From contig NC_135901.1 in the NCBI RefSeq assembly GCF_964194155.1, positions 25,854,001 to 25,918,000 on the forward strand: 64,000 nucleotides of DNA, read 5' to 3'. Shown here piece after piece: positions 4,876-62,149 of the stretch. The stretch is from Cetorhinus maximus. Its lineage: Eukaryota. The notes under the pieces are model-generated. The model did no database searches. It saw only the letters and a program-made list of their open reading frames with translations, and had not been told where the DNA came from. Both the position numbers and the translations under genes were made by a program. Every line of letters starts with the position of its first letter. The first letter of the stretch is position 1.

Positions 4876-5225
4876 TCAAGACCGTGGGTGACTTGTAGGT
4901 GATGGTGTTCACATACACCTGTTACCCTGGTCCTTCTGGGTGGTGGAGTTTGAAAGTTTGGCAGGTTCTGTCAAAGTTCTGGTCAAGTTGTAAATATTTA
5001 AAATCCTTCTCCTTAGCCCCCTGCTGCTCCATCCCTCTCTCTCGCTCTATTTCTCGCTTTGTGCTTTTGTGGGTTCTCTCTCACTGTCTTTTTACTATTT
5101 TAAATTAATTTCACAGGGTGCTAGAAGGGAAGGATTTGCAGTGAGGAAACTCAAACCAAACATCACATCAGGATCTGATGCAGCCTCCAAATTTATCATA
5201 ACTGGAATATCATTTGATTTTGAAC

Positions 5226-6350
5226 ATGGAAGGAGAAAGCACCGTTCACAGTGGAGATAAACCGTACACGTGTTCTGTGTGTGGACGAGGCTTCAGCCGA
5301 TCATCTGGCCTGTCGAAACACAAGTGCAATCATATGAGGGAGAAACTATGGAAATGTGAGGACTGTGGGAAGGGATTCAATTACCCATCTGACCTGGAAA
5401 CTCATCGGCGCACTCACACTGGGGAGAAGCCGTTCACCTGCTCTGAGTGCGGGAAGAGATTCACTCACTCATCCAGCTTGCTAAAACACCAGCGAGATCA
5501 CAATGGGGAGAGACCATTCACCTGCTCCAAGTGTGGGAAGGGATTCACTACCTCATTTCACCTGCTGATGCACCAGCGAATTCACACTGGGGAGAGGCCA
5601 TTCACCTGCTCTGACTGTGGGAAACGATTCACTCAGTCATCCCAACTGCGAGCCCACCAGCGCACTCACACTGGGGAGAGACCGTTCAGTTGCTCTGACT
5701 GTGGGAAGGGATTCACTCAGTCATCCCACCTGCTGACTCACCAGCGCAGTCACACTGGGGAAAGGCCATTCACCTGCTCCAAGTGTGGGAAGGGATTCAC
5801 GTGTTCATCACGCCTGCTGACGCACCTGCGAGTTCACACTGCTGAGAGACCTTTTAAATGCCCAGACTGCGGGAAGTGCTATAAAAGTTCTGGGGAACTG
5901 ATGTCCCATCAACGTGTTCACACTGATGAGAGACCGTTCAGGTGCTTTCAATGTGGCACTGGGTTCAGGCGGTCATTTGAACTTACTGTACATCAGCACA
6001 GTCACACTGGGGAGAGTCCTTTCACCTGCTCTGAATGTGGGAAGGGATTCAGTATTTCATCCCGCCTGCTGATGCACCTGCGAATTCACACTGGGGAGAG
6101 GCCATTCACCTGCTCTGAGTGTGGGAAGGGATTCACTCAGTCATCCCAACTGTCGACACATCGGCGCACTCACACCGGGGAGAGGCCATTCACCTGCTCC
6201 AAGTGTGGGAAAGGATTCACTTGCTTATCACACTTGCTGACCCACCAGCGAGTTCACACTGGGGAGAGGCCATTCACTTGCTCCAATTGTGGGAAGGGAT
6301 TCACTACCTCATCCAACTTACTGAAACACCAACGGGTTCACACTGACTAG
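5226..6350 (+). CDS. KRAB-less tandem C2H2 zinc-finger protein (gene A), 13 fingers
   Basis: Open frame of CxxC-x12-HxxxH repeats with TGERPF linkers; ATG in aacATGg; acceptor tttcacag at 5116. Confidence 0.9.
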
Positions 6351-6910
6351 AGACCTTTTAAATGCCCAGGCTGCAGGAAGTGCTATAAAAGCTCTGGAGA
6401 CCTGATGTTCCACCAAAATGCTCACTGATATGAAACCTTGCAAGTGCTCCCACTGTGGGACTGAGTTCAGGCAGTCATCTCATTTCACTGTTCACCAGCG
6501 CGGTCACATTGGGGAGAGGCCGTCTCATGCTCGGGATGTGGGAAGAGTTGATCAGACACGTACCCCTCTCAAATACAAGCAAATTCTCACTGGAGAGAGG
6601 CCAATCACCTGCTCCACGTCTGGGTGGGGATTCACTCAGTCATACAGTCTGCTGTTGGACAGTCATTCACTTGCTCCGATTGTGGGTAGGGATTCACGGA
6701 ATCAACTGACCTGATGAATCACCAACATGTTCTCACTGGGAAAAGACTGTGCAGGTGATATGAACGTGAGATTGGATTCATTAATTCATCCAATCTCTGG
6801 ACAGAGCAGCAAGTTCACACTGGGCTGAGGCTGTTCACCTACTCCTTGTGTGGGAAGGGATTCACTCAGTCATTTAAACTTCTGACTCATCAGTGAGTTC
6901 ACACTGAATA
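6351..6910 (+). pseudogene. Decayed zinc fingers in the 3' UTR of gene A
   Basis: After TD* (GAG>TAG in linker) the frame continues RPFKCPGCRKCYKSSGDLMFHQNAH...; later frameshifts. Confidence 0.85.
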
Positions 6911-7122
6911 GTGGATGTTTCTGTGTGTGTGTGTATATCTCCTTGTAAAGGGATTTGATCATCATGAAAACTGTAAAACTATCAATGACAAAGTGGAATG
7001 AGGCTGTTCACCTGCTTCCTGTCTGGAAACACATTTCCTGATAATGGATATTGTACTTAACAGAGATCCTGGAATTCATTTCAAATTGTTAGAACGTTGC
7101 TCTCTAAAAGCTAAATGCATTT

Positions 7123-10135: not shown

Positions 10136-11200
10136 ACAAATGTTGAAATGTTTGCTCCACACCCACAGGGTTTCATCTGTTTAAAGCCACAAACAGGAAG
10201 CTCCAGTTTTCTCCTGGAGTTTGAGACAAATCAGCTTCCAAAATGATGCAGAGTTTCAGCCAATGAGGGAGAGCCTGGTTCAGCCCCGCCCCTCATTCAT
10301 TCCGATTGGTCGGAGGGCCAGCCCTCTCCCGCGCGCAGTCCGCCAGCCCCGCCCCCTCTACCTATTGGTCCGGAACTGCTGCCAATCAGCCGAGCTGTGT
10401 GAGCTAGAGCATGCGCACTGCCGATGATGGTGATGAACTAGTTGGCTGTATCGAAATTCTCAGCCGGTGAGTTATCGCCGGCTGGGTCATGAAGGAGGGA
10501 AGGAATCGGCGGGTGGGTTGGGAGGATTCATAAACACCTCGTGTAGGCTGCAAGTCCCGAATACGAAGCTCGCGTATGGTATTTGAACCGGCTACAACTG
10601 CTCGGGCTTTTCCCCGAGACAGGCCCCAGTTAACGGCCGCCACCTTTATCCGGGATAATGTTGCAGCCGGGGCGCCTGCGGAGACAATGAGGGCGTTCTG
10701 GGATCAGCCCCGCCCCTCATTCACTCCGATTGGTTGGAGGACCAGGCTTTATCACTCCGGCCTCCAGCCGCATCCCCTCTTCCTATTTGTCCGACCCTCC
10801 CGTCAATCACTCCCCGGGCATTGTGAGCTGGAGTAACCGTTATGAATAATTATCAGCTCCTGGTTTGCAGCTGCGGGGCTTCTCCCTCCCGGGAACAGGC
10901 CCAGGTTAACGGCCGCCATCCTGGGTCAGCGAGTGGAGGATGGTTCACATCAGAGGATGGGGGACAATAAATAAGAGGTTACACTTTGGGCTCAAATCAA
11001 TGAGGAATCTGATCTGTGGGAAGGAAGGAAGGAACGAAACCCTGGGAGGTGGGCGGGGAGGATTCAGAAACACCCGCTGGAGGCCCCAAACCCCCAGCAA
11101 GAACCTGCAGGCCCCGCGTTTGTTGCATTTTAACGTTATGCGCGGCCATGTTGGTGAAGCAACAAAGAGTGGGCGGGGCTTCAGGGTCCCAGTGACCAGG
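10136..11200 (+). promoter_or_regulatory. CpG-rich promoter/first-exon region of ZNF gene B (cassette partly duplicated at 10704-10835)
   Basis: CCAAT, GC boxes, ATTGG, gcatgcgca, candidate donor ccg|gtgagt (~10467), YY1-like ggccgccatc (~10911). Confidence 0.75.
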
Positions 11201-11768: not shown

Positions 11769-12127
11769 GGTATTAGAACGGGTGGAGTTACAGGCAGGAA
11801 GCTCAAACCTAACATCACAGCATGGTCTGACAGAGTCACTCGATTCATCAGGACCTGAATAACATTAGCCTTTCAATGTGGAAGGAGAAATGTTTGTTCT
11901 GTCTGTGGGGAAATGTTTCAAACATTACGTGACTGGAAAATCACTAAGACACATACACCTGAGGGAGAGTGTTCCAGTGAACTGACTGTGGAAAGAGCTT
12001 TAACCAGTTACACTGCCTGGGGAAACATCAGATCATTCACAGTGGGGAGAAACTGTGCACGTGTTGTGTATGTGGACAAGGTTCAACTGATTGTCCAACC
12101 TGGAGAGACACAAAAAATACCGGCACC
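11769..12127 (+). pseudogene. Fossil coding leader and decayed fingers in the 5' part of the gene B exon
   Basis: After acceptor ttttccag reads VLERVELQAGSSNLTSQHGLTESLDSSGPE*H*PFNVEGEMF, then broken fingers. Confidence 0.7.
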
Positions 12128-12718
12128 ATGGAGAAACCGTGGAAATGTGAGGACTGTGGTAAAGGATTCACCTATTCATCCCGGCTGGAAATCCATCGAC
12201 GCATTCACACTGGGGAGAAGCCGTTCAGCTGTTCTGTGTGCGGGAAGGGATTCACTCAGTCATCCGGCCTTCGGTCACACCAGCGAGTTCACACTGAGAA
12301 GAAACCGTTCAGCTGCACAACCTGTGGAGAGAGGTTCAAGTCTTCATCCATCCTCACTGAACATCAGCGAATTCACACAGGTGGGAGACTGTTCATTTGC
12401 TTCGTGTGTGGGAAGGGATTCACTCATGTATTTGCCCTCCAGTCACACCACCGAATGCACACAAAGGAGAATCCATTCAGCTGTACTTCCTGTGGAAAGA
12501 GTTTCAGGCAGTCAACTGACCTCAATGAGCATCAACGCACTCACATTGGGAAGAAGCCATTCACCTGCTCCATGTGTGGGAAGGGATTCTGTTGGTCATC
12601 TCAACTGCTGACACATCAGCGAGTTCACACTGGGGAGAGGCCATTCACCTGCTCCTTGTGTGGGGTGGGATTCACTCAGTCACAACACCTGCTGAGACAC
12701 AAGCGGGTTCACAAGTGA
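12128..12718 (+). CDS. KRAB-less C2H2 zinc-finger protein (gene B), 7 fingers
   Basis: MEKPWKC start in Kozak caccATGg; 7 intact fingers; ends HK*. Confidence 0.88.
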   Translation: MEKPWKCEDCGKGFTYSSRLEIHRRIHTGEKPFSCSVCGKGFTQSSGLRSHQRVHTEKKPFSCTTCGERFKSSSILTEHQRIHTGGRLFICFVCGKGFTHVFALQSHHRMHTKENPFSCTSCGKSFRQSTDLNEHQRTHIGKKPFTCSMCGKGFCWSSQLLTHQRVHTGERPFTCSLCGVGFTQSQHLLRHKRVHK

Positions 12719-17699: not shown

Positions 17700-18460
17700 G
17701 AAGCTGGTAAATGACTGACTGATTCTTTTCCCATGCACACAGCAGGTGAATAGCCTCTCCCGTGTGTGAACTTGCTGGTGTAACAGCAGGCGAGATGACT
17801 AAGTGAATCCTTTCCAGCAGACAGGTTAAGTGAATGGCCTCCCCCCTGTGTGAGTTTGCCAATGACTTTCCAGCTTGGATAATTGAGTTCCCACAGTCCT
17901 CATATTTTCACATATTCTCCATGTTGTCAGTGTTCTTGTGTCTCTCGAAGTTGGATACCCAGTTGAAACCTGGTCCACACACAAAACATGTGTACGGTTT
18001 CTCTCTGCTGTGAATGGTGTGATGTTGTCCAGGCTGTGCAACTGGTTAAAGCTCTTTCCGCAGCCAGTGCACTGGAACACTCTCACTTGGGTGTGTGTCT
18101 TGGTGCTTTACTCCTTGTGATGAGAACCAAACTTAATGTGCCATCTGCACCATTCCTCTCCTCCACTCCCAGTTTTCTCCCTCCTACTACTCTGGCTGGG
18201 TTCAGTTCTCACTTGTGTGCAGACTGGTAATGAAATCAATGACTCAATAATTTTCTCTCCTGGTCACTGCAACCCTGAAGCCCCGCCCACTCCCTGTTCC
18301 CTTACCAAGATGGCCACGCATTTGCTGGGCTACTTCCTGAAGCAAGATGGCAGCCATCAACCTGGGCCTGTTCCTGGGAAAAAGCCCCAGAGTGGCAAAT
18401 GTGGGCCCTGCAGGTTCTTATTCAGGTCCTGTGGCCTTCACCAGGTTTTTCTAAAGCCTT
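17700..18460 (-). pseudogene. ZNF pseudogene C (deleted and frameshifted) with CpG-decayed upstream module
   Basis: RVFQCTGCGKSFNQLHSL...TMEN..LESHWQTHTGGRPFT*; 18140-18460 is homologous to the gene B intron module. Confidence 0.8.
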
Positions 18461-18759
18461 GATCCCCTGCATGCCACCAGCTCACCTGCCTGAAGAGCGC
18501 ATCCAGCACTTGCATGGTTCTGGTCAAAGCAACACAGGGCATGCTTCAGATACTGTCCAGCACTGCACCTACACACTGAGCTTGTGTGGAGTGAACAGGG
18601 CACATTTCCTTCTGCGGGGATTGTTGGGCAAAAACCCTGACATTGAAAATCCCAAATAGTAAATAATGGTTGATCTCTCTGATGCCATTGAGATGCACGA
18701 ATCAATTAAATCAATAAAATTAATTTTAAAAGTCTCACAGATATTCAAGTTCACTGGAA

Positions 18760-19256: not shown

Positions 19257-19357
19257 AATATCGAGCAGGGTTCAGGGAGGTTAGATCCCAGGCACTGCAC
19301 TGATGTCATAAAGCATCACCGTTCTATCCATCTGGTCCTCTCTTTGTCCCTTTAAAG

Positions 19358-19628
19358 GTGGAGAACTGGGACATCCTGTCTCCAAACACATCCCACCCTG
19401 TTCATACTGAGAATCCCAGGGTGGAGAACTGGGACATCCTGTCTCCAAACACATCACACCCTGTTCATACTGAGAATCCCAGTGTGGAAAACTGGGACAT
19501 CCTGTCTCAAAACACATCTCACCCCGTTCATACTGAGAATCCCAGTGTGGAAAACTGGGACATTCTGTCTGAAAACACATACCACCCTGTTCATACAGGG
19601 AATCCCAGGGTGGAGAACTGGGATATGC
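19358..19628. repeat. 63-bp minisatellite, about 4.3 copies
   Basis: Unit gtggagaactgggacatcctgtctccaaacacatcccaccctgttcatactgagaatcccagg. Confidence 0.9.
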
Positions 19629-19629
19629 T

Positions 19630-19790
19630 GGTATGTGTCCAGGACAAATTACTATTTGCAAGGTGAAGGTACATCAGCAGCAGGGTTAGTGAAGAGGTTG
19701 ATGGTAATAACCAGGCAGACTAACTCACCAGGGAAGCTGATCCAATGGGGATTCCATGGGATCCACCCAAAATACAATCATTGGCACTGT
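19630..19790 (+). pseudogene. Retroviral RNase H C-terminal relic
   Basis: PGQITICKVKVH...DGNNQAD*LTREA (KVKAH...GNxxAD motif); paralog of 32685-32820. Confidence 0.6.
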
Positions 19791-20910: not shown

Positions 20911-21837
20911 TCACTTGTGAAATTTCTGGTGTCTCAGCCGGTGGAATGAATCACTGAATCCCTTCCCACACTCAGAGCAGGCGAATAGTTTCTGCCCGGA
21001 GCGAACTCGCCAGTGTTTCAGCAGATTGGAAGACTGAGTGAATCCCTTCCCACACACAGAGCAGGTGAACAGCCTTTCCCCTGTGTGAACTCGCTGGTGT
21101 GCCAGCAGGGTGGATGAATGAGTGAATCCCTTCCCACACACGGAACAGGTGAACGGCCTCTCCCCAGTGCGAACTCCCTGGTGTCTCCGCAGGTGAAATG
21201 AATCACTGAATCCCTTCCCACACTCAGAGCAGGTGAACGGCTTCTGCCCGGAGTGAACTTGCCAGTGTTTCAGCAGATTTGAAGACTGAGTGAATCCCTT
21301 CCCACACATGGAGCAGATGAATGGTTTCTCTCCGCTGTGAACTCGCTGGTGTGTCAGCAGTGTGGATGAATCCTTAAATACCTTCCCACAGTCAGAGCAG
21401 GTGAACGGCCTCTCCTCAGTGTGAACTCGCTGGTGTGTCAGCAGTGTGGATGAATCCTTAAATACCTTCCCACAGTCAGAGCAGGTGAATGGCCTCTCCT
21501 CAGTGTGAACTCGCTGGTGTGTCAGCAGTGTGGATGAATCCTTAAATACCTTCCCACAGTCAGAGCAGGTGAACGGCCTCTCCCCAGTGTGAACTCGCTG
21601 GTGTCTCAGGAGAAGGGATGAATTAGTGAATCCTTTCCCACAATGAGAACTGATGAATGGCCTCTCTCTGCTGTGAACTCGCTGGTGTGTCAGCAGTGTG
21701 GGTGACTGAGCGAATCCCTTCCCACACTTCGAGCAGATGAACGGCCTCTCCCTGGTGTGACTGCGTCGATGAGTTTCCAGCTCAGACGGGGTTCTGAATC
21801 CCTTCCCACAGTCCCCACATTTCCATGGTTTTTCCAT
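20911..21837 (-). CDS. KRAB-less C2H2 zinc-finger protein (gene D), 11 finger units, 3 with ligand substitutions
   Basis: MEKPWKC start; three identical [21 protein letters not shown] fingers; acceptor at 22145-22147. Confidence 0.85.
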
Positions 21838-22394
21838 GGTGCTGGTGTCCTTGTGTCTCTCCCGGTTGGATAAATAGTTGAAGCCTCGTCACACACAGAA
21901 CACGTGTACAGGGTCTCCCTGCTGTGAATGGTGTGATGTTTTTCAGGCAGTGTAACTGGTTAGAGCTCTTTCCACAGTCAGTGCACTAGAACACTCTCAC
22001 TTGGGTGTGAGACTTGGTGCTGTTCCGGTCAAACTGATGTTAAAATGGCCAATGGTATTCACATCCCAACGAATCAAGTGATGTCAGATCGTGATGTGAC
22101 ATTTGTTTTGCGATTTCTGTCTCCAAATCTCGCCTTCTAATATCCTGTAAAACGAATTTACAGAAAGTCATCACCGTCAGTACAGGATGGAAATTCAGAA
22201 CAGACAATTCCAGTTTCTATGGGTCATTCTCTCCTCTCTCGTTCCCCAAAAGCTGTAAATCTCTGCCCCACACCCTCTCCCTCCATCCTCACTCTGCTGT
22301 ACCTAATATACACCCTCCCCATTCTCCTGAAAGTGCTGCTTCAAGCTGATCGACAGATCAATACACACTGCTTTCTGTCCTCAGCACAGAGATC

Positions 22395-22895
22395 ATAACA
22401 TCATAAGAAATACAAGCAGGCGTAGGCCATTTGGCCCATTGAGCCTGCTCTTCCATTCAATAGGATCATGGTTGATCTGATTGTGACCTTAAGTCCACTT
22501 TCCTGCCTGTCACCCATGACCCTTGACTCTCTTGTCAATCAAAAGTCCGTATAACTCAGCCTTGAATATATTCAGTGACTCGGCCTCCATTACTCTCTGG
22601 GGAAGAGAATTCCACAGAATAATGGCCCTCTGATAGAAGAAATTTCTCCTCAATTCCATGTTAAATGAGAGCCCCCTTATCTTGAGGCTCTGCTCTCCTA
22701 GTTCTAGAATCCCCCACGAGGGGAAACAGCCTCTCTTCATCTACCCTGTCAACCCCCCTCAGAATCTTATAGGTTTCAGTAAGATCACCTCTCATTCTTC
22801 TAAACTCCCATGAGTACAGGCCCAACCTTTCCTCATAAGACAACATCTTCATTCCAGGAACCAGCCTGGTGATCCTTCTCTGAACTGCTCCTAAG
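22395..22895 (-). mobile_element. CR1 3' fragment
   Basis: LSYEERLGLYSWEFRRMRGDLTETYKIL...RRNFFYQR..WNSLP plus tail. Confidence 0.85.
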
Positions 22896-22974
22896 TTATT
22901 CTTGGGAATAGCTCCCCTTAATTAAGGACACCAAAACAACACACTGGGGAGAGGTATTGTGATCTGAAAGCTAT

Positions 22975-25768: not shown

Positions 25769-25775
25769 GCTCACC

Positions 25776-26260
25776 GAACAATCCCCGCCCACTCCCTCTT
25801 CCCTCACCAAGATGGCTGCCCATGTGCCTCGCTCCCTGAACAAGCCCCGCCTTCTTCTCTCAAGATGGCGGCCAGTTGCCTGGATAACCCGGGCCCGTCA
25901 CCGGTGAGGAAGCTCCGCCTCCCTGATCCGCCCTGATTCGCAATATGGCGGCCGGTAAGCCCGATACCCGGCCTTGTTATCGCGGGGCCAATGACCTGTT
26001 ATTCAGGGCCTAGGGCCTACCCCAGAAGTTGATCCAGTTCCTAGTCCAGCCGCGGTTTCCATTCCTACCCTGTGCTCACAATCTCTTCCCGCTTCCTGAA
26101 CCGTCCGCTCCTCCTCACTCTGTCACCATGACTGACACTGAGCATGCTCAGAGAGCACACCCACACTGCATCTGCGCACTGGACTCCTATAGTCATTGAT
26201 AGGGGACTTTCCGAAGCGTGGGGTGTTGTGGGTAATCAAACCACCATTGACAGATTGAAC
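25776..26260 (-). promoter_or_regulatory. CpG-rich promoter/first-exon region of ZNF gene D
   Basis: Repeated YY1-like aagatggcggcc, GC boxes, NRF1-like palindromes (ctgagcatgctcag, tgcgca). Confidence 0.65.
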
Positions 26261-29225: not shown

Positions 29226-30367
<1,142 letters not shown>

Positions 30368-30679
30368 TTAATATAAATTGGGCAACTCCGTCAGATCCTG
30401 ATGTGATGTTTGGTTTCAGTTTCCCAACTGCAAATCCTCCCCTTCTAATACCCTGTGAAATTTAAAACAGAAAAAAAAGTGACAGAGAACCCACAAAAAC
30501 ACAAAGACAGACTGTGAAATTGTGCTGAATGAATTTATGGGACTTGCAATCGGAAAAAAGACTATGAAAGCTGAAGGGCTGTCATAAAAACCCAACTGGT
30601 TCATTAATGTCCTTCAGGGAAGGGAAAACTGTCACCCAGTCTGGACCTAAAGAGGACTTTGGACACTACAGGAGGAAAA

Positions 30680-36039: not shown

Positions 36040-36490
36040 ACCTGACAGCTCACAATGCCCGGCTGATTGACGGCAGAACCGGACCAATAGGCAAGGAGAG
36101 GGCGGGGCTGTCGGCGCGTCGAAGCGGCTGGTCCTCCAACCAATCGGAGTGAATAAGGGGCGGGGCAGGGCTGGGCTGAGTGAAGCATGCGCAGTGTGAT
36201 TAATGGCGATGGGGAAAAGCTTCTTTCTAGGATTCGCATTCGGTAAAGGCGGAGAGGGTAGGATGGCGGGGTGAAGCGATGGCGCAATCCGGCCGGCGGT
36301 TGAATAGGCTTCGTAAATGTTATGTAAACCGTAAAGCTCGAAAAACAACCAATCAATACCCGGGACCGTGACGCTCTTTTGCACAGAGCAGGGCCGCCGC
36401 TTTCACCCAGTTCCAGACCCGGATTAACGGCCGCCATTTTTATTGGGGGCAATTTGCAGCAGGGCGCATGCGCGGCCTCCATCTTTGTAG
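36040..36490. promoter_or_regulatory. CpG-rich promoter between head-to-head genes E and F
   Basis: Promoter cassette in inverted orientation (36045-36175), then gcatgcgcag, candidate donor tcg|gtaaag, YY1-like ggccgccatttt, gcgcatgcgc. Confidence 0.7.
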
Positions 36491-37232: not shown

Positions 37233-38162
37233 TGAGAATTTTAAAAGTTGGTGCTTCTTAACTGGGAGCCTTTGTAGATCAGTGAGCACAGTGGCAGTGG
37301 GTGAACAAGACAGTGCGACTAAACACACAAGCAACAGAGCTTTGAATTACTTCAAGATTACGGGGGTGGAGGGGGATGATTTAATGTTGAAGGCTGACTG
37401 GGAGTGTGTTAGGATAGTTTAGCCTTGCAGTAACAAAGGAATGGATAATGGTTTCTGCAGGAGATAAACTGAGACTAAGGTGGAGTCAGGCCATATTACT
37501 GAGGTAGAAATAGGCGGCCTTGGTGATGATGTGGATATGTGGTTGGAAGCTCATCTGGGAGTCAAATATGACACCATGGTTGTGAACAATCTGGTTCAGC
37601 TTCAGAGGAAATTTCTGCGCATCCCGTACTTGACGTCAGACAAGTTAGAATGGTGCGTGACTTGGGTGGGAACTTGGAGGTGCTGGTGTTTACATACCCT
37701 GGCCTGTCTAGGTGGTGGAATCTGATGGTTTGGGTGATTCTGTCAATGTTTTTGTGAAATTATAGATATCAAATTTTTCTCCTTCACCACCTGCCTCTCC
37801 CACCTCTCTCTCCCAAACACCCTCTCTCCACCCATAGAACCAGAGTCTTGTTTAGGCCCACACCAGATTCCCACCCTGAAGGACATCAGTGAACCAGTTG
37901 GGTTTTTACGACAATCCAGCAGTTTTCATGGTCAATTTTTCCTGGTGCCGGCCCCACAAATTACCGGATTCATTCAGCTCAATTTCACAACCTACCTTTG
38001 TGTCTTCTGGGTTCTGTCTCACTCTCTTTTTCTGTTTTATATCAATTTCACAGGATATTGGAAGGGAAGGATTTGCAGTCAGGAAGCTGAAACCAAACAT
38101 CACATTGGGATCCGATAGAGTCACCCAATTTATCATAACTAGAATATCATCAGAATTTGAAC

Positions 38163-39284
38163 ATGGAAGGAAAAAGCACCGTTCACAGTGGAGAGAAACC
38201 GTTCACGTGTTCTGTGTGTGGACGAGGCTTCAGCCGATCATCTAACCTATCAAAACACAAATGCAGTCACAACAGGGAGAAACTGTGGAAATGTGGAGAC
38301 TGTGGGAAGGGATATAATTATCCAGTTCAGCTGGAAAGTCACAGGCGCACTCACACTGGGGAGAGGCCATTCACCTGCTCTGACTGTGGGATAGGTTTCA
38401 CTCGATCATGCCACCTGACAAGACACCAACGAGTTCACACCGGGGAGAGGCCGTTCACCTGCTCCGAGTGTGGGAAGGGATTCACTCAGTCATCCAACCT
38501 GCTGACACATCGGCGCATTCATACTGACGAGACACGTTTTAAATGTCCAGACTGTGGGAAGCGCTTCAGAAGTTCTGGGGACTTGATGTCCCATCAAAAT
38601 GTTCACACTGATGAGAGACCGTTCAGGTGCTCTCACTGCGGGACTGGGTTCAGGTGGTCATCTCAACTCACTGTACACCAGCGACTTCACACTGGAGAGA
38701 GACCATTCACCTGCCCCGAATGTGGGAAGGGATTCACTCGGTCATCCCATCTGGTGACACACCGGCGCATTCACACTGGGGAGACACCGTTTACCTGCTC
38801 CGATTGTGGGAAGGGATTCACGCAGTTATCCACCTTGCTGATACATCAGCAAGTTCACACTGGGAAGAGGCCGTTCATTTGCTCCAAGTGCGGGAAGGGA
38901 TTCACTCGGACATCCGACCTGCTGACACATCAGCAAGTTCACACTGGGGAGTGGCCATTCTCTTGCCACGTATGTGGGAAGGGATTCACTCGGTCCTCCA
39001 GGTTGCTGATACACCAGCGAGGTCACACTGGGGAGAGACCTTTTAAATGCCCAGACTGCGGGAAGTGTTATAAAAGTTCCGGGGTCTTGATGTCCCATCA
39101 ACGTGTTCACACTGACGAGAGACCGTTCAGGTGCTCTCACTGTGGGACTGGGTTCAGGCGATCATCTCACCTCACTGAGCACCAGCGAGTTCACACTGGG
39201 GAGAGACCATTCACCTGCTCTGAGTGTGGGAAGGGATTCACTCAGTCATCCACCCTGCTGACACACCAGCGAGTTCACAAGTAA
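38163..39284 (+). CDS. KRAB-less C2H2 zinc-finger protein (gene F), 13 fingers
   Basis: Open frame [13 protein letters not shown]...; acceptor tttcacag at 38053; ends HK*. Confidence 0.9.
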
Positions 39285-43542: not shown

Positions 43543-43544
43543 GC

Positions 43545-44010: not shown

Positions 44011-44019
44011 TGACTTCAG

Positions 44020-45030
44020 TCTTCCCAATGTTTAATTTGAAGAAATTTCTGCACATCCACCACCAGATATCAGACAAACAGTCTGATAATTTACCAAGAG
44101 TGGAGAAATCGTGAGAGGTGGTGGTGAGGCAGAGCTGGGAGCTGTCAGTGTAAATGTGAGAACTGACAGTGTTTTCAGATGATGTCATTGTGTGGAGCAG
44201 GTTAATGAGAAACAAGAGGAGACCAAGGCTGGATCCTTTGGGGACACCAGAGGTAACTCTGGGATTGGAAAGGGAAGACATTGCAAGTGAGTCTCTGGCT
44301 ATGATTAGATAAAGAAGAATGGAACCAGGAGAGAGCAGCCCCACCCAGCTGGACGACAGGGGAGAGGCAAAGGTGCAGAATGATGTGGTCAACATTGTCA
44401 AAGGCTGCAGACAGGTCGAGGACGAGAAGGGAGAGTTTATCTTTGTCACAGTCACATAGGGTGTCATTTGTGACTTTGATAAGAGTTGTTTCAGCACTGT
44501 GACAGGGGCAAAAACCTATTTGGAGGGATTCAAACATGGAGTTCTGGGAAAAATGGGCACAGATTTGGGAGGTGACAACATGTTCAAGGACTTTGGAGAG
44601 GAAAGGGAGGCTGGAGATGGGGCAATAGTTTGGAAAGACAGTGGGGTCAAGCATTTGTTTTTTGAGAAGGGTATAATGATGGGAAATCTGAAGGAGAGAG
44701 GGACAGTACCTGAGAAAGAAAACTATTAACATAGTCAGTGGACATTGGAAAGTTGAGTGATCAGCAGTTTAGTGGGAGTAGGGCTGAGGAAGCAGGAGGT
44801 GGGTTTCATGGACAAGATGAGCTCTGAGAGGGCATGAGGGGAGATGGGAGGGAAACGACAGAAAGATGAGAGTTCAGGGATTGGGTAATGGGGAACTTTA
44901 GGGAGGGCGAGTGGAAGGGAGGGAAGCAGCAGAGGCAGCTGATCAGATTGTCTTAATCCTAGTGACAAAGAATCTCTATGAGCTCCTCACACTTGTTGTT
45001 GGAGGTGCGGATGGAGGAGACAGGGGAGAG
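44020..45030 (-). mobile_element. L2 RT fragment
   Basis: NYCPISSLPFLSKVLE..QIGFCPCHSAETTLIKVTND..LDLSAAFD; GVPKGS. Confidence 0.9.
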
Positions 45031-45231
45031 GGAGAGCCCTTCAAAAGGAACTAACTTGTGTTAGTGATATTAAAAAGATTCATCACACTGTGTCTTTAAC
45101 ACAAAACTAATTTATTTGACTTTTCGCCAGATTAGTAAGTGGGCTGTAGTTTAATAACATCAGCAGAAACAGACCCCAATGAACATGATTCAGTCCTAGA
45201 TGTGATGAACAGCAAAATCCCATCACTGTTG

Positions 45232-46178
45232 TTACTTGTGAATTCGCTGGTGTCTCAGCAGGTGGGGTGAATAAGTGAATCTCTTCCCACACTGGGCGCA
45301 GGTGAATGGTCTCTCCTCAGTGAGAACTCGCTGGTGTGTCAGCAGGTTGGACGAGGTAGTGAATCTCTTCCCACACTGGGCGCAGGTGAATGGTCTCTCC
45401 TCAGTGTGAATTCGTTGGTGTGTCAGCAGGTTGGATGAGGTAGTGAATCTCTTCCCACACTGAGGGCAGGAAAATGGCCTCTTCCCAGTGTGAATTTGCT
45501 GGTGTCTCAGCAGGCTAGATAACTGAGTGAATCCCTTCTGACACTGGGGGCGGTTGAATGGCCTCTCCCCAGTCTGAACTCGCTGGTGTGTCAGCAGGTG
45601 GGATGACCGAGTGAATCCCTTCCCACACTCAGAGCAGATGAACGGTCTCTCCCCCGTGTGAACTCGCTGATGTCTCAGCAGGTGGGGTGAGTGAGTGAAT
45701 CCCTTCCCACAAGTGGAGCAGGTGAACGGCCTCTCCCCAGTGTGAATTCGCTGGTGTACAATGAGTTGAGATGATCGCCTGAACCCAGTTCCGCAGTGAG
45801 AGCATTTAAATGGTCTCTTGTCTGTATGAACACACTGATGGTACATCAGCTCCCAGGAACTTTTAAAGCACTTCCCACAGTCTGGCATTTAAAAGGTCTC
45901 TCATCAGTGTGAACTCGCTGGTGGCTCAATAGGTTGGATGAAAGAGTGAATCCCTTCCCACACGTGGAGCAGGTGAACGGCCTCTCCCCAGTGCGACTGC
46001 GCCGATGCATTTCCAACTCAGACGGGAATCTGAATCCCTTCCCACAGTCCCCACATTTCCACGGTTTTTCCCTGGTGTGGCTGCGCTTGTGTCTTGACAG
46101 GCCAGATGATTGGTTGAAGCCTCGTCCACACAGAAACCACGGTTTCTCCGCGATGTGAACGGTGCTTTTTCTTTCCAT
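45232..46178 (-). pseudogene. ZNF pseudogene G (MERK-type, about 11 finger units)
   Basis: 1-bp frameshift near 45886 (tgccaga versus tgcccaga), deleted first finger, several lost Cys/His ligands. Confidence 0.75.
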
Positions 46179-47312
46179 GTTCAAAATCAAATGATATTCA
46201 GGTTACAATAAATTGGGTGACTGTCAGAATCTGCTGTGATGTTTTGTTTCTGCTTCCTGACTGCAAATCTTCCCCGTCTAATCCCCTGTGAAACTGATTT
46301 AAAACAGGAAAAAGGGAGTGAGAGAGAACCCACAAAAACAGGTTGTGAAACTGAGCTGAATGAATCTAGTAGTTTGTGCGGCCGGTACTAGGAAAAAGTG
46401 ACCATGAAAACTGCTGGATTGTCATAAAAACCCAACTGGTTCACTAATGTCCTTCGGGGAAGGGAACCTGCCACCCAGTCTGGGCCTATACAAGATTCTG
46501 GCCTCCATGGGAGGAGAGAGAGAGGTGGGAGATGCAGGGGGTGAAGATGTGTTTAATACATCTTCAGCTCGACCAGAACTTTGGCAGAATCTCCCAAACC
46601 CTCAACCTCCTCCACCTAGAAGGACGAAGGTAACAGGTGTCAATGAACACCATCACCTCCAACTCACGCACCGTCCTGACTTGTCTGACATCCAGTACTG
46701 GATGAGCAGAAATTCCCTCCATTTAAACGTTGGGAAGATGAAAGCCATTGTCTCCACTCCCTAACCAGCTCTCTGAGGCTGAACCAGAATATTCGCAACC
46801 TTGTTGTCATATTTCAGCCCAAACTCAGCTTCTGACTACAGATCAATAAAACCACCCATTTCCACCTCAGTAACATCGCCCAGCTGTGCCCCTGCCTCAG
46901 AGCACAGCCCGGCCCTCATTCCGGCACTATGGGTTCCCGTTTTCATTGACAGGGGACTTTCTGACCCATGGGGATTCAGGGTAAACCAGCCGCCATCGAG
47001 ACCAATCTGTGAACGGGCATTTTTTCCCCCCCAGTTGGTAAAACAGAAGATCCATGGATGAGGGGGATATTGGACAGGAAGCACAATGAGAGGTTCGGAC
47101 ACTTTATTAAATACTCACAGCAGAAGCACATTAATCTGATCAGAGATCACTTCCTCACGAACAGCCAGCGGAGTGGAGCCTCCTGAGATTCCGGTCCCTT
47201 TCCCGTCAGTATTTACAGGAGCTGGGACACGGAAAAGAGTCTCAGTAAAATCAGGGATTTATTTGTTCACTGTTTTAAAATGGGTCTGGGCTCACACTTG
47301 AAGTTTGTGCAG

Positions 47313-49845: not shown

Positions 49846-50748
49846 TCAGGAGGCATTGTGACTGAGTGAATCCCTTCCCACACACCGAGAGTTGAATAAC
49901 CTCTTCTCAGTGTGAGTGCGTTGGTGGGTCAGCAGGTTGAAAGACTTTGCAAATCCCTTCCCACACAGCGAGCAAGTGAACGGCCTCTCCCCAGTGTGAA
50001 CTCGCTGGTGTGCAGTGAGATTGGATGACCGACTGAATCCTTTCCCACATACGGAGCATGTGAACGGTTTCTCTGCAGTGTGAGTGCGTTGGTGAGCAGT
50101 GAGGTTGGATGACTGCCTGAAACTCTTCCCACAGGAAGTGCAGCTAAATGGCTTCTCCTCAGTGTGAATTCGCTGGTGTCTCAGCAGGTTGGGTAAAACT
50201 GTGAATCCCTTCCCACACATGGAGCAGGTGAACGGTCTCTCCCCAGTGTGAACTCGCTGGTGTAAAATGAGGGACGATGCCTGTCTGAAACTCTTTCCAC
50301 AGGAAGTGCAACTGAATGGCTTCTCTTCAATGTGAATTCGCTGGTGTGACAGCAGGTGGGATGACCCAGTGAATCCTTTCCCACACACAGAGCAAGTGAA
50401 CAACCTCGCTCCAGTGTGAACTCGCTGGTGTGTCAAAAGGTGGAATGACTGAGTAAATCCCTTCCCACACTCGGAGCAGATGAATGGCCTCTCCCCAGTG
50501 TGAGTGCGTTGATGTACAGTGAGTGCTGAAGAGTGCCTGAACCTCTTTCCACAGGAAGTGCAGCTGAATAGCTTCTCCTCAGTGTGAATTCGCTGGTGTG
50601 ACCAAAGGCCAGATGACTGAGTAAATCCCTCCCCACACACAGAGCAGGTGAATGGCCTTTCCCCGGTGTGACTGCGTCGATGGTTTTCCAGCAGGGATGG
50701 GTAACTGAATCCTTTCCCACAGTCCTCACATTTCCACGGTTTCTCCAT
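49846..50748 (-). CDS. KRAB-less C2H2 zinc-finger protein (gene H), 10 fingers plus a frameshifted 11th
   Basis: MEKPWKC start; acceptor at 51107-51109; close paralog of gene B. Confidence 0.85.
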
Positions 50749-51699
50749 AGTGTGGGTGTCCTTGTGTCTCTCCAGGTTGAATAATCAGTTGAAACCTTGT
50801 CCAGGCACAGAACATGTGTACAGTTTCTCCTCACAGTGAACGATGTGATGCTATTTCAGGCTGTTTAACTGGTTAAAGCTCTTTCCACAGTCAGTTCACT
50901 GAAACACTCTCACTCGGGTGTGAGTGTGTGTCTCGGTGTTTTTCCAGTGACACTGAAGTTCAATATCTTTCCCCACAGACGGAACAGACAAACATTTCTC
51001 CTTCCACATTCAAAATCTGAGGATATTCAGGTCCTGGTGAATTGAGTGACTGTCAGAAAATGTTTGGTTTGAGTTTCACATCTGCAAATCCTTCCCTTCT
51101 AATACCCTGGAAAATGAGTTTATAAAAGTCATCAATGTCAGTCCAGGATAGAAATTCAGAACAGACAATTCTAGTTTTAATGGAATATTGTTTTCTCTCT
51201 TGTTCCCCCAAAGCTGTAAATCCCCGTCCCACACACTCTCCCACCTCCCTGGGCTGAAATCCAAACCCATCTCACCATCTCCACCATTTCTTTCCTCCAC
51301 TCCCAGGTTTCTCCCTCCCACTCCTCTGCCTGGCTTCAGTTCTCCAGCTCCTGTCTGGAGACTGACAATAAAATCAATGAATTAATCATTTTCCCTCCTG
51401 GTCACAGACACCCTCAAGCCCCGTCCACTCTCTGTTGCATCATGAAGGTGGCCATACATGCGTCTGCTCCCAGATGAACCAAGATGACAGCTGTTAATCT
51501 GGGCCTGCTCCTGGGAAGAAGCCCCAGCGCTGCAAACGCAGGACCTGCAGGCTCTTATTGGGGGTTTGGGGTCTCCAATGGGTGTTTCTGAATCCTCCAC
51601 GCCCACCTCCCAGAGTTTCCTTCCTTCCCAGAAATCAGAGTCCTCACTGATTTCAATTGCTGAACACCCTCTCCCTGGCAGGACCGTACTGAGTTTCCA

Positions 51700-54529: not shown

Positions 54530-54820
54530 CCTACAGACAAGCTGTTTCACTTCTACATTCAAACTTTGGTGATATTCAGGTTCTGATGAATCGAATGACT
54601 CTGTCAGATGTTTGGTTTGAGTTTCCCGTCTGTCAATCCCCCACTTCCAGTGCCCTGTAAGTTCACAATAACCATCACTATATTTCCAGGATGGAAACTG
54701 AGAAGGGACAAACATTTCTCTTGATTTAAGTTTGCTGTGTGTAAATCCTCCCCTTCTAACCCCCTGTAAAGATAATTTCCAAAATCCATCCCTGTCAGTC
54801 CAGGATAGAAATGCACAATA
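54530..54820 (-). pseudogene. Fingerless ZNF leader remnants (two tandem acceptor + leader copies), possibly 5' UTR exons of gene H
   Basis: Acceptors at 54764-54766 and 54655-54657, followed by GLEGEDLH.. and ggaaactcaaaccaaacatc. Confidence 0.6.
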
Positions 54821-54849: not shown

Positions 54850-55710
54850 TGTCCGCGCATGCGCCCTGCTGCACAAAATGGCAACCGTTAATCCGGACCT
54901 CTCACCGAGGAACGCGGATCGGGGCAACTGCCGCCCACAGATACCAGCGAGGAACCGGTAGCTTGTTATTCTGGCTTCAGAACGGCTCAAGGTGTTTACG
55001 AAACCTGCCCGTCCACCCGCCGGCTGCATCTCTCCCTCAATTCCGCCCTTTATCTTACCGGCTGCGGACCTGACAAACAAGCAGCTTTCCTTCGCCCTCA
55101 CTCACACTGCGCATGCTCCAGACTCGAGGCGGAATTGCACCTGCGCACTGATGTCCAGCTCCAGCAGCCACACTGCGCATGCTCCCGTCATAATACCCGG
55201 GTGATTGACGGCAACTCTGGACCAATAGGAAGAGGGGGCAGGACTGCAGGACCAAAGGGGCGCGGCTGGCCCACCAGCCAATTGGAGTGAATGAGGGGCG
55301 AGGCTGAATCAGGATCTCCCTCATTGGCTGAAACTCTTCATCATGTTGAAAGCTGGTTTGCCTCAAACTCCTGGAGAAAACTGGACCTTTGTGTTGAGAT
55401 AAAAACAAAAAACTGCGGATGCTGGAAATCCAAAACAAAAACAGAAATACCTGGAAAAACTCAGCAGGTCTGGCAGCATCGGCGGAGAAGAGTACAGTTG
55501 ACGTTTCGAGTCCTCATGACCCTGTTCTGTTGAAGGGTCATGAGGACTCGAAACGTCAACTTTGTTCTTCTCCGCCGATGCTGCCAGACCTGCTGAGTTT
55601 TTCCAGGTATTTCTGTTTCTGTTTTTGTTTTGGACCTTTCTGTTTGTGGCTTTAAACAGATGAAACCCTGTGGGTGTGGAGCAAATATTTCAACATTTGT
55701 TACTGAAATG
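54850..55710 (-). promoter_or_regulatory. CpG-rich promoter cassette, probably for gene H
   Basis: Inverted paralog of 10136-10700; CCAAT x3, GC boxes, tgcgcatgc repeats, candidate donor ccg|gtaaga (~55058). Confidence 0.75.
55391..55630. mobile_element. Palindromic Penelope-type insertion (inverted terminal repeats)
   Basis: Arms ~55430-55522 and ~55535-55633 are nearly perfect complements; tggaccttt duplicated at 55382-55390 and 55631-55639; absent from paralogous promoters. Confidence 0.85.
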
Positions 55711-58494: not shown

Positions 58495-60425
58495 TTATAT
58501 ACGAACATACGAATTAGGAGCAGGAGTAGGCCACTCGGCCCCTCGGGCTTGTTCCGCCATTCAATAAGATCATGGCTGATCTGATTGTAATCTCAACTAC
58601 ACATTCCTGCCGACCCTGACAACCTTTCACCCCCTTGCTTATCAAGAATCTATCTACCTCTGCCTTAAATATAATCAAAGATTCTGTCTCAACTGCCTTT
58701 TGAGGAAGAGAATTCCAAAGTCTCACAACCCTACGAGAGAAAAAATAACTCCTCATCTCTGACTTAAATGGGCGACCCCTTAAACAGTGGCCCCTAGTTC
58801 AAGATTCTCTCAGAAGAGAAAACATCCTTTCCACATCCACCTTGACAAGACCCCTCAATGTGTTTCAATCAAGTTACCTCTTTCCTCCAATCTTTCCTCA
58901 TAAGACAACCCGCCCATTCCTGGTATTGATCAATTAAACCTTCGCTGAACTGCTTCCAATGCATTTACATCTTTCCTTAAATAAGGAGACCAGTACTACA
59001 CATAGTACTCCAGATGTGGGCTCACCAAGTGCCCTGTATAACTGAAGCATAACCTCCCTACTTTTGTATTCAATTTCCCTTGCAATGAATGATAACATTC
59101 TTTCAGCTTTACTAATTATTTGCTGTACCTGCACACTAACCTTTTGTGATTCATGCACTAGGACACCCAGATCCCTCTGAATCTCAGAGCTCTGCAATCT
59201 CTCACCATTTAAATAATATGCTTCTTTTTTATTCGTCCTGCCAACGTGGACAATGTCACATTTTCCCACATTATACTCCATTTGCCAGCTTTTTGCCCAC
59301 TCACCTAACCTATTTGTATCTTTTTGTAGCCTTCTTATGTCATCTTCACAATTTACTTTCCTACCTATGTGTCATCAGCAAATTTAGCAATCACACCATT
59401 GGTTCCTTCATCCAAATCATTTATATAAATTATAAAGAGCTGAGGTCCCCGCACCGATCCTTGTGGCACACCACTCATCACATCCTGCTAATCAGAAAAA
59501 GACCCATTTATGCCTACTCTCTGTTTCCTGTTAGCTAGCTAATCATCTATTCATGTCAATATGTTACCCCCTACACCATGAGATTTCATTTTCCACAATA
59601 ACCTTTAATGAGGCACCTTATCAAATGCCTTCTGGAAATATAGGTACAGTACATCCACCAGTTCCCCTTTATCCACAGCACCTATTACTTCTTCAAAGAG
59701 CCCCAATAAATTGGTTAAGCATGATTTCCCTCTCACAAAACCTTGTTGACTCTGCCTGATTAAACTTGAAGTTATCTAAGTGCCCTGTAATAATGCTTCT
59801 AACATTTTCCCTATGACAGATGTTAAGCTAACTGGCCTATAGTTTCCTGCTCTCTGTCTCCCTCCCTTTTTGAATAAGAGTTACATTTCCTATTTTCCTA
59901 TCTGATTTTCCTATCCTTCCCCGAATCTAGCGAATTTTGGAAAATTAAAACCAATGCATCAACTATCTCACTAGCCACTTCTTTTAAGACCCAAGGATGA
60001 AATCCATCAGGACAGGGGGACTTATCAGCCCACAGCTCCAACAATTTGCTCAGTACCACTTCCCTGGTGATTGTAATTTTCTTGAGCTCCTCCCTCCCTT
60101 CCAATTCCTGATTTATAGCCATTCCTGGCATGTTACTTGTATCCTCCACAGTGAAGACGATGCAAAATATCTGTTCAATTCATCTGCCATCTCCTTATTT
60201 TCCATTATTAACTCCCCAGATTCACTTTCTATAGGAGCAACCCTCACTTTGTTAACTCTTTTCATTTTTAAATATCAATATTTACTTTCACTATCTGTCT
60301 TTATATTTCTACCTCGCTTTCTCTCGTACTCGACTTTTTCTTTCTTTATTAATCTTTCAATCATTCTTTGCTTTTTTTAAATTCTATCCAGTCTTCTGAG
60401 CTGCTAAACATCTTTGCACAATTAT
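58495..60425 (-). mobile_element. CR1 LINE RT to 3' end
   Basis: DKSPCPDGFHPWVLKE, MEYNVGKC, FFSRRVVRLWNSLP, tail. Confidence 0.9.
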
Positions 60426-60520
60426 ATTTCTGCAGAAACAAACTCCAGCTGTCAGAATGAAAGAATTCAATCCTGAACAGGATTAAAAGCAACAGTAACC
60501 ACAGATTTCAATCCCCATAG

Positions 60521-61390
60521 TCACTTGTGAACTCGCTGATGTGTCAGCAGGGTGGATGACTGAGTGAATCCCTTCCCACACACGGAGCAGGTGAATGGCC
60601 TCTCCCCAGTGTGAACTCGCTGGTGTGTCAGCAGATCCTTTTTACTTTTAAATGTCTTCTCACACTCAGAACATTTAAAAGGTCTCTGATCAGTATGAAC
60701 AAGTTGATGTGTCAGAAGGTGGGATGACCGAATGAATCCCTTTCCACACATGGAACATGTGAATGGCCTCTCGCCAGTGTGAACTCGCTGATGCGTCAAC
60801 AGGTCAGATGAATTGGTGTATCCCTTCCCGCACATGGAGCAGGTGAATGGCCTCTCCCCAGTGTGAATTCGCTGGTGTGTCAGTAGTTTGGATGGTCGAT
60901 TAAATCCCTTGCCACAGATAAAGCAGGTGTATGGACTTTCCCCAGTGTGAATTCTCTGGTGATTCAGAAGTCTGGATAATCGATTAAATCCCTCTCCACA
61001 CAAGGAACAGATGAACGGACTCTTCCTCGTGTGAATGCGCTGGTGTGTCAGCAGGTAGGATGACTGAGTGAATCCCTTCCCACACACGGAGCAGGTGAAC
61101 GGCCTCTCTCCACTGTGAGTTTGCTGGTGCCTCTGAAAGTTTGATGAATGACCAATTGCCTTCCCACACACGGAGCAGATGACTGAACTCTGCTCAGTGT
61201 GAATGTGCTTGTGTCTCATCAGGTTGGATGAATTAGTGAATCCCTTCCCACACACGGAGCAGGTGAATGGCCTCTCCCCAGTGTGGCTGCGTTGATGAAT
61301 TTCCAGTTTTGATGGGGAACCAAATCCCTTCCCACAGTCCCCACATTTCCACGGTTTCTCCATGGTGCCGGTGTCCTTGTGGCTGTCCAT
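60521..61390 (-). CDS. KRAB-less C2H2 zinc-finger protein (gene I), 10 fingers; likely start MEKPWK at 61363
   Basis: Open frame, ends HK*; decayed fingers and leader upstream (61391-61590). Confidence 0.87.
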
Positions 61391-62149
61391 GTTGGATGGT
61401 CAGACCAAACCTCGTACACAGTTTATCCCCGCTGTGAATGATTAGATGTTTTTTCAGGCTGTGCAATTGGTTAAAACATTTCTCCTCCTACATTAAAGGT
61501 TCAATGATATCCAGCACCTGATGTATTGAGTGAATCTGTCAGATTTTGACGTGATTTTTGGTTTGAGTTTCCTGTCAGCAAATCTTCCTGTTCACTTCCT
61601 TGAACTGCTGTAGTCCATGTGGTGTCGGCGCTGTTAGGAAGGGAGTTCCAGGATTTCGACCCAGCGACAATGAAGGAACCGCAATATATTCCCAAGTCTG
61701 ATTTATGATGGAAAAAAGGTTATTGATAAAGCAGCTGAAGATGGTTGGGCCCAGGATACTGTCCTGAGGAATTCCTGCAGCGATGTCCTGGGTTTGAGGT
61801 AACAAAGAATAAAAAAAACCTGATAAATGTTAAATTGTGTTGTTGATAAAAGAGATACTCATTTAATTTTTCAGAGATGACTGATTCCCCAGGGGTTCAC
61901 TCTGACTCCCCTGACTGACTGACTCAGGGTCCAGTCCTCAATCCCCCCGACTGGTGACTGAAGTCGCTGCTCCCTTTGCTCCTCCGGCCTCTGAGCTCCT
62001 CTTGCTGTTGTTTCCCAGGACAGTCAATGCTCGCTCTCCAACATGACCCTGTCAGATGGAGTTCAGGGGCTCAGAGGGAGAAAGGAAAATGTGGCGGTGA
62101 ATCTGAGTTGGGAAAAACAAGGAGAGAAACAGGATTCAATGGAGAAACT

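What the first reader, a model, noticed from the sequence alone, without database searches (positions are those of the whole stretch)
5117..61590. Effector-less ZNF array with a fossil coding leader: sign of a lost upstream domain
Seen: each finger exon opens after a cag| acceptor with a conserved leader that, read in phase 1, gives VLEG(K/E)DLQxGNSNQTSxQDLTESLDSSGPEYH..LN(M/V)EGE, in frame with the fingers in A and F but broken by stops or indels in every copy. No KRAB, SCAN or BTB exon was found. Inference: the ancestor had an upstream coding exon and spacer, as KRAB-ZNFs do, and these genes now make fingers-only proteins. This would be a shark parallel to TE-tracking ZNF expansions with an unknown repression mechanism.
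Basis: partly seen in the sequence, partly recalled or inferred. Interest (0 to 1): 0.7.

Follow-up and report, generated by a model that had tools for sequence, protein, structure and literature searches.

The report
Shark finger-only zinc-finger gene cluster
This is a cluster of shark genes for DNA-binding zinc-finger proteins that carry no known repressor part; the shared stretch in front of the fingers looks like ordinary inherited untranslated sequence, not clear proof of a lost domain.

Summary
Eight tandem C2H2 zinc-finger genes (six open, two frameshifted) and three relics are real. Seven of eight open at a pyrimidine-rich CAG acceptor, and the shared 109-nt leader is broken in 9 of 9 copies scored. 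No KRAB, SCAN or BTB exon was found (0 of 204 upstream frames; 0 of 29 leader-bearing proteins, all 25 named ones from sharks). The lost-domain inference is unproven. The leader shows no codon signature (pN/pS 0.77, null 0.81, p=0.44). It is about as conserved as third codon positions and the 3' UTR, and 23% of shuffles are open in that frame too. Most genes lie behind a repeated CpG promoter with a short candidate first exon and no effector frame. Best reading: a birth-and-death family of finger-only proteins that shed fingers at the N-terminus and restarted at internal ATGs. Transposon tracking was not tested. The scan noted similar inherited stops in two other genomes.

The parts
1590..1759 (+). 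Promoter module (CCAAT and GC boxes, NRF1-like palindrome; motif names recalled), likely for gene A
   Evidence: profile E 3e-52; this copy was in the profile
5117..5225 (+). Gene A leader after CAG acceptor; two stops in the finger frame
5226..6350 (+). Gene A ORF, A-type, 374 aa, 13 fingers
6351..6907 (+). Decayed fingers behind the stop of gene A
10252..10466 (+). Promoter module and candidate 58-nt first exon (donor at 10467) for gene B; second module copy at 10681-10840
   Evidence: splicing inferred
11769..12127 (+). Gene B leader plus three fossil fingers (putative 5' UTR)
12128..12718 (+). Gene B ORF, B-type, 196 aa, 7 fingers
17702..18109 (-). Relic B-type finger array without leader, with a YY1-like module upstream (18309-18470)
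20911..21837 (-). Gene C ORF, B-type, 308 aa, 8 canonical fingers among about 11 repeats
21838..22144 (-). Gene C leader plus fossil fingers
25800..26200 (-). CpG-rich promoter-like stretch with YY1-like sites, candidate promoter of gene C
   Evidence: inferred
29229..30343 (-). Gene D, A-type, frameshifted after finger 2 (84-aa ORF; remaining fingers in another frame)
30344..30452 (-). Gene D leader; two stops in the finger frame
36045..36479 (.). Promoter module between head-to-head genes D and E, candidate first exon of E (donor at 36243) and YY1-like module
   Evidence: two-way use inferred
38054..38162 (+). Gene E leader; two stops in the finger frame
38163..39284 (+). Gene E ORF, A-type, 373 aa, 13 fingers
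45232..46285 (-). Gene F, A-type leader and frameshifted array (110-aa ORF from 46178)
49846..50748 (-). Gene G ORF, B-type, 300 aa, 10 fingers
50749..51106 (-). Gene G leader plus three fossil fingers
54545..54790 (-). Two tandem leader relics without fingers, each behind an acceptor (54763, 54654)
55059..55335 (-). Promoter module and candidate first exon without ATG (donor at 55058)
   Evidence: inferred
60521..61363 (-). Gene H ORF, B-type, 280 aa, 10 fingers
61364..61596 (-). Gene H leader and partial fossil fingers; no canonical acceptor, repeat fragment upstream
62000..62600 (-). CpG-rich promoter-like stretch, candidate promoter of gene H
   Evidence: inferred

Best explanation
A piece of a very large shark family of tandem C2H2 genes that evolves by duplication and decay. 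The unit that is copied is: CpG promoter, short first exon without a consistent coding frame, intron with a YY1-like module, one large exon. That exon starts with a 109-nt leader that now behaves as neutral 5' UTR. The ancestral array began further upstream. In B-type genes the first three fingers were killed by stops and translation restarts at an ATG in the next linker. In A-type genes the first two fingers were deleted, the third stayed intact, and an ATG at the end of the leader is used. The products are 7-13-finger proteins with no separate effector. They most likely bind DNA with gene-specific sequences and act by occupying sites (blocking or competing) or by recruiting cofactors through some of the fingers. 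Shown: ORFs, decay pattern, fossil fingers, absence of known effectors, selection pattern. Inferred: splicing, start sites, protein expression, DNA binding, mode of action. Whether the leader itself was ever coding stays open (about 40%).
For: Leader in finger frame: pN/pS 0.77 vs column-permuted null 0.81, p=0.44, 9 copies. Coding finger 0.35, p=0.003, 7 copies. Fossil fingers 0.51, p=0.038, 5 copies, with no signal in shifted frames. Third positions of the leader vary no more than first and second (15% vs 15% and 20%), whereas fingers show 30% vs 16% and 20%. B-type UTRs align to the finger consensus (3 of 3 tested, p=0.003); the leader consensus does not (p=0.07; 1 of 9 single copies under 0.05). 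Leader identity is like that of third positions and 3' UTR. 0 of 204 upstream frames and 0 of 29 leader-bearing proteins carry KRAB, SCAN or BTB. 13 of 19 N-terminal extensions of those proteins match translations of promoter, intron, antisense leader or LINE DNA of this window, and no extension is shared family-wide. Four database proteins (two Pristiophorus, one Heterodontus, one unnamed) end at the same stop in fossil finger 1 that window genes B and C hold. One promoter module recurs five times. Contact residues differ between fingers (pN/pS 1.04) while linkers are constrained (0.39).
Against: No spliced transcript linking a first exon to an acceptor was seen, so a distant coding exon cannot be excluded. 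The Pfam scan would miss a decayed or undescribed domain and exons under 42 codons. Open, in-frame leaders exist in other sharks (13 of 29), so the ancestral leader was probably open in the finger frame. Real spacers evolve almost neutrally (recalled), so no codon signal is weak evidence against a coding past. Only 36 codons and 9 copies were tested. Gene G has a sense codon at the shared stop. The finger controls are biased low because units were picked by their Cys/His pattern, and distances are uncorrected. No promoter-like stretch lies directly upstream of gene F.
Confidence: 0.62

Rival explanations
1. One reading: the leader is a dead spacer left after an upstream effector exon (KRAB-like, PRDM9-derived or undescribed) was lost before living sharks diverged; the effector-less gene then multiplied.
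For: The leader sits between an acceptor and the first finger as spacers do (PMC2604467, passages). It is open and in frame with fingers in 13 of 29 relatives. Fossil fingers prove that the ancestral ORF started further upstream. A language-model search of one leader in its finger context gave a KRAB cluster at 0.77. Effector loss by degeneration is documented in mammals (PMC2443715, passages).
Against: No codon signature. 23% of shuffles are open in this frame. Another frame is open for 29 codons with no stop in 8 of 9 copies. The 0.77 score is below the tool's 0.9 lead threshold, and a leader without finger context gave no hit. No relic effector in window or relatives. The intron would be phase 2, while KRAB and PRDM9 finger exons follow phase-1 introns (recalled; two searches found no source). 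An ATG three codons before fossil finger 1 explains the start without any upstream exon.
Confidence: 0.22
2. Some members still splice a small, undescribed coding exon (a FiNZ-like peptide) or an upstream start onto an open leader, so an effector-bearing core exists elsewhere in the genome and this window holds effector-less derivatives.
For: Open leaders in six shark genera. Two distant species have models that start one residue before the leader (P0004, P0032). Two Pristiophorus models share a 15-aa piece directly before it. FiNZ is only 28 aa (PMC10547256 section 4), below the 42-aa screen used here.
Against: The extensions disagree with one another and mostly map to promoter or intron DNA. 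The two models with the shared piece end at the stop in finger 1. A profile search of 1.84 billion representatives gave 28 hits, none with a common N-terminal domain.
Confidence: 0.1
3. The leader is kept as a regulatory upstream ORF read in the frame one base earlier, tuning translation of the fingers.
For: That frame has the lowest pN/pS (0.62; 0.59 over 29 codons) and no stop in 8 of 9 copies. B-type UTRs hold several upstream ATGs.
Against: Not significant (p=0.09 and 0.07, best of three frames). The candidate first exons give no consistent ATG in that frame.
Confidence: 0.06

Closest known systems
Lineage-specific poly-ZF / 'ZNF-only' tandem clusters (Emerson and Thomas 2009, PMC2604467; PMC3971581)
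   Same: All fingers on one large exon, canonical linkers, clustered paralogues, pseudogenes, variable contact residues, no annotated N-terminal domain; hundreds of ZNF-only models exist in other vertebrates (passages).
   Different: Shark-restricted leader and finger types; N-terminal fingers decayed into 5' UTR with restart at internal ATGs; sharks not treated in the passages read.
KRAB-ZNF genes of tetrapods and lobe-finned fish
   Same: Clustered, fast-turnover finger arrays behind a splice acceptor and a non-finger stretch.
   Different: [quoted passage not shown]
FiNZ-ZNF genes of cyprinid fish (Wells et al. 2023, PMC10547256)
   Same: Independent large ZNF expansion in a KRAB-less fish lineage. 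The paper's supplement counts 703-3586 ZNF ORFs in six shark assemblies, 1223 in a skate and 475 in a chimaera.
   Different: FiNZ is a conserved 28-aa coding exon; no conserved coding first exon was found here. Transposon repression was shown for FiNZ-ZNFs, not for these genes.
Mammalian C2H2-ZNF genes that lost KRAB or SCAN (Tadepally et al. 2008, PMC2443715)
   Same: Loss of N-terminal parts by degeneration is a recurrent theme (passages).
   Different: There the lost domain is recognisable in relatives; here only lost fingers are recognisable.

Membership tests
Tandem poly-C2H2 ZNF cluster (ZNF-only type) | Five or more tandem C2H2 fingers with canonical linkers on one exon | tested here: met
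   Six ORFs with 7-13 canonical fingers
Tandem poly-C2H2 ZNF cluster (ZNF-only type) | Clustered paralogues with birth and death | tested here: met
   6 open, 2 frameshifted, 3 relics in 64 kb
Tandem poly-C2H2 ZNF cluster (ZNF-only type) | No N-terminal effector domain | tested here: met
   0 of 204 frames, 0 of 29 relatives; undescribed or short domains not excluded
Tandem poly-C2H2 ZNF cluster (ZNF-only type) | Constrained scaffold, diversified contact residues | tested here: met
   pN/pS linker 0.39, contact 1.04 over 56 finger units; shared finger 0.35, p=0.003; uncorrected, not a test of positive selection
Tandem poly-C2H2 ZNF cluster (ZNF-only type) | Spliced, translated mRNA | tested here: inconclusive
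   Only contigs of guessed RNA runs from relatives; no first-exon joint shown
KRAB-ZNF | KRAB-A exon upstream, in frame | tested here: not met
KRAB-ZNF | Open coding spacer from acceptor to first finger | tested here: not met
   Broken in 9 of 9 window copies, no codon signature
KRAB-ZNF | TRIM28 recruitment and H3K9me3 silencing | not testable with these tools
   needs experiments
SCAN- or BTB-ZNF | SCAN or BTB domain upstream | tested here: not met
FiNZ-ZNF | Conserved short coding first exon | tested here: inconclusive
   Six candidate first exons share no coding frame; no FiNZ profile was run; exons under 42 codons were not screened by Pfam
TE-tracking ZNF families | Binding and repression of young transposons | not testable with these tools
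   no binding or knockdown data

The most novel reading that the evidence does not exclude
Sharks hold a family of a thousand or more zinc-finger genes that lost (or never had) an effector before living sharks diverged, yet kept diversifying their DNA-contact residues to track transposons, silencing them with fingers alone or through constant fingers that act as the cofactor-binding part.
Probability: 0.17. Interest if true: 0.72.

Novelty: new member of a known kind. Interest (0 to 1): 0.3.

Why it matters
How large zinc-finger families act in vertebrates without KRAB and TRIM28 is an open question (PMC10547256 discussion). Sharks have among the larger ZNF counts, and five literature searches found no paper on the architecture of their family. 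This window gives a testable gene model: finger-only products, two start subtypes, a shared promoter. It also warns annotators that database N-termini on these genes are mostly read-through of promoter and intron DNA. It does not show a lost domain or a new mechanism.

Tried and rejected
No genome is held for this window, so no family-wide count or test was possible. Run search: no RNA holder listed; RNA status is a guess for all such rows. Contigs of 4 of the 24 listed runs laid on 35900-38330: no joint from the candidate first exon to the acceptor among 15 of 362 joints shown. Three contigs of guessed-RNA runs start to align 3-8 nt after the acceptor with 141-417 unaligned 5' letters, while four others run through the boundary unspliced. 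Summed depth rises from 38016 to 38113 by 150x, 221x and 6x in those runs and 4x in the fourth run; contig depth cannot rank parts of a gene, so this was not counted. Search for long proteins (392-2000 aa) with the leader: 0 of 5 candidates; weak, since later found a 1338-aa model, a fusion of two arrays with junk between. Search with the A-type N-terminus: 13 hits, only 2 from sharks, so that search covers the family poorly. Metagenome motif scan: 2 matches, no fingers nearby, taken as chance. Leader as a degenerate finger: not supported. Recoding of the shared TGA codons: rejected; most lie at non-cysteine positions, other copies have sense codons there, and Rfam found nothing at gathering score. 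No tRNA genes. Constant 'effector' fingers: the first A-type finger has less varied contact residues than generic fingers, but other classes were defined partly by those residues, so the test is circular. Two of 28 profile hits (P0046, P0047) are unrelated repeats and were dropped before the count of 29; P0036 was left out of the N-terminus mapping. No source for KRAB intron phase. bioRxiv 10.1101/2025.11.27.690821: term search, no shark passage. Supplementary files 3-5 of PMC10547256 were not searched and may hold shark details.
Full report
What is there. A six-frame scan finds eight C2H2 arrays on both strands, and self-comparison adds a decayed ninth at 18109-17702. I label the genes A to H by position. 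Six have an open frame from an ATG: A 374 aa, B 196, C 308, E 373, G 300 and H 280, with 7-13 canonical fingers and nothing else. D and F are frameshifted after their first fingers. A DNA profile of the leader finds ten copies, eight at the genes and two fingerless relics near 54.7 kb. Seven of eight genes have a pyrimidine tract and CAG directly before the leader; H has a repeat fragment there. That reading is a phase-2 intron; KRAB and PRDM9 finger exons follow phase-1 introns (recalled; two searches found no source).

Two subtypes. A-type genes (A, D, E, F) start at an ATG at the end of the 109-nt leader, behind a stop that all four share. B-type genes (B, C, G, H and the relic) start 236-359 nt into the exon, at an ATG inside a finger linker. 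Between leader and start they carry three decayed fingers. These align to the window's finger consensus far above shuffles (3 of 3 tested, p=0.003), while the leader consensus does not (p=0.07). They keep a weak codon signal in the finger frame only (pN/pS 0.51, null 0.81, p=0.038; shifted frames 1.03 and 0.95). The third fossil finger is the intact first finger of A-type genes, which lack the first two. So the ancestral ORF was longer at its N-terminus, and the demonstrable loss is of fingers. An ATG lies three codons before fossil finger 1, so the ancestral ORF needed no upstream coding exon.

Was the leader coding? Among nine copies its third positions vary no more than the others (permutation p=0.8), and pN/pS in the finger frame is 0.77 against a null of 0.81 (p=0.44). 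The control, a coding finger shared by seven genes, gives 0.35 (p=0.003); that control is slightly biased because the finger was picked by its Cys/His pattern. Leader identity between paralogues (0.70-0.81) is like that of third codon positions (0.68-0.76), the 3' UTR (0.64-0.69) and the B-type intron flank (0.80). Only the intron flank between subtypes does not align (0.43). An open frame of this length occurs in 23% of shuffles, and the frame one base earlier is open for 29 codons with a lower, non-significant pN/pS (0.62, p=0.09). The leader therefore behaves as inherited, neutrally drifting 5' UTR. A coding past is possible, because spacers are weakly constrained (recalled), but it is not shown.

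Is there an effector? None of 204 stop-free sense frames of 42 aa or more between promoters and acceptors matched KRAB, SCAN or BTB; the best hit was a reverse-transcriptase fragment. Protein searches with the leader gave 12 hits, and a profile of database leaders gave 28 among 1.84 billion representatives, two of them unrelated repeats. Together these are 29 leader-bearing proteins. All 25 with a name come from sharks: Pristiophorus, Heterodontus, Stegostoma, Scyliorhinus, Carcharodon and Cetorhinus. None has a known effector; two are gene models fused to histones. Thirteen have the leader open and in frame with fingers. But 13 of 19 N-terminal extensions map to translations of this window's promoter, intron, antisense leader or LINE DNA (four of them weakly), and none is shared family-wide. 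Four proteins, from Pristiophorus, Heterodontus and an unnamed record, end at the same stop in fossil finger 1 that genes B and C hold. The damage is thus older than the split of the two main shark lineages (taxonomy recalled). A language-model search gave a KRAB cluster at 0.77 for one leader in finger context and nothing for a leader without fingers, which is not support. Coverage of shark ZNFs in these searches is thin.

Upstream anatomy. One 170-nt promoter module with CCAAT and GC boxes recurs five times, followed by an NRF1-like palindrome, a 50-60-nt candidate exon with a good donor, and a YY1-like module with nine copies (motif names recalled). The copy at 36045-36171 lies between head-to-head genes D and E. 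Two further CpG-rich stretches lie upstream of C and H, none directly upstream of F. The candidate first exons give no ATG, a short closed ORF, or an out-of-frame ORF at their best donors. Contigs of relatives did not show the joint, so splicing remains an inference.

How it most likely works. Promoter, first exon and finger exon are duplicated as a unit; copies lose fingers at either end (A also has dead fingers behind its stop) or die by frameshift. Surviving copies keep their linkers (pN/pS 0.39) and differ at contact residues (1.04), with a different fingerprint series in each gene (uncorrected, not a test of positive selection). The likely products are finger-only DNA binders that occupy gene-specific sites and act by blocking or by recruiting cofactors through fingers. 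Expression, binding and repression are inferred, not shown. Nothing here ties them to transposons beyond LINE fragments in the introns.

Comparison with what is known. ZNF-only models number in the hundreds in many vertebrates (PMC3971581, passages), and the ambiguity between true finger-only genes and missed exons was stated in PMC2604467 (passages). Effector loss is known in mammals (PMC2443715, passages). Wells et al. (PMC10547256; outline, sections 4 and 10, term search, part of the supplements) do not name sharks in the main text but count 703-3586 ZNF ORFs in six shark assemblies. PMC8455134 (passages) reports loss of KRAB-box families in cartilaginous fishes; PMC11603059 (passages) cites only PRDM9 for the whale shark. 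Five searches found no description of this family's architecture; most subscription journals are not in the library. Two earlier notes of this scan, on other genomes, also read shared stops in ZNF clusters as inherited scars; they are unchecked AI notes.

Verdict. This is a new member of a known kind, a lineage-specific finger-only ZNF cluster, with a neat record of N-terminal finger erosion. Interest 0.3; the bold reading (an effector-free transposon-tracking system in sharks) has about 17% and would deserve 0.7.

Noticed in passing
P0001, P0007 (Pristiophorus gene models): The leader is fused to histone H2A and H2B in two models, which suggests that this ZNF family is interspersed with histone genes in that shark; no histone ORF was noticed in this window.
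   Followed up: no
window 5853-6005, 29636-29484, 38538-38690, 39042-39194, 45888-45742: An atypical pair of fingers recurs in all A-type arrays, and one or both recur in Pristiophorus, Cetorhinus and Heterodontus proteins; a candidate constant module.
   Followed up: partly
window 55426-55631: A 206-bp near-perfect inverted repeat (90% identity to its own reverse complement) next to a promoter module, made of two copies of a common short repeat.
   Followed up: no
window 54545-54790: Two leaders in tandem without fingers right behind a promoter; tandem leaders also occur in P0003 and P0035.
   Followed up: partly
window 21315-21651: Gene C has three near-identical fingers in a row, a recent internal duplication.
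   Followed up: no
window 22400-25770, 32845-35700, 39840-40560, 42700-45180, 58500-60430: Long decayed LINE-like fragments (endonuclease and reverse-transcriptase-like frames; CR1/L2 type recalled) fill most introns and spacers.
   Followed up: no
window 4046-4356, 19357-19630, 30680-30823: Minisatellites of 36 and 63 bp and an AG microsatellite.
   Followed up: no
P0003, P0004, P0020; P0005, P0021, P0033, P0040, P0042: Relatives share one longest-contig length per species (65.2 Mb in Cetorhinus, 59.5 Mb in Heterodontus), which hints at one main cluster chromosome.
   Followed up: no
window 61377-61363: Gene H has an in-frame ATG nine codons upstream of the usual B-type start.
   Followed up: no
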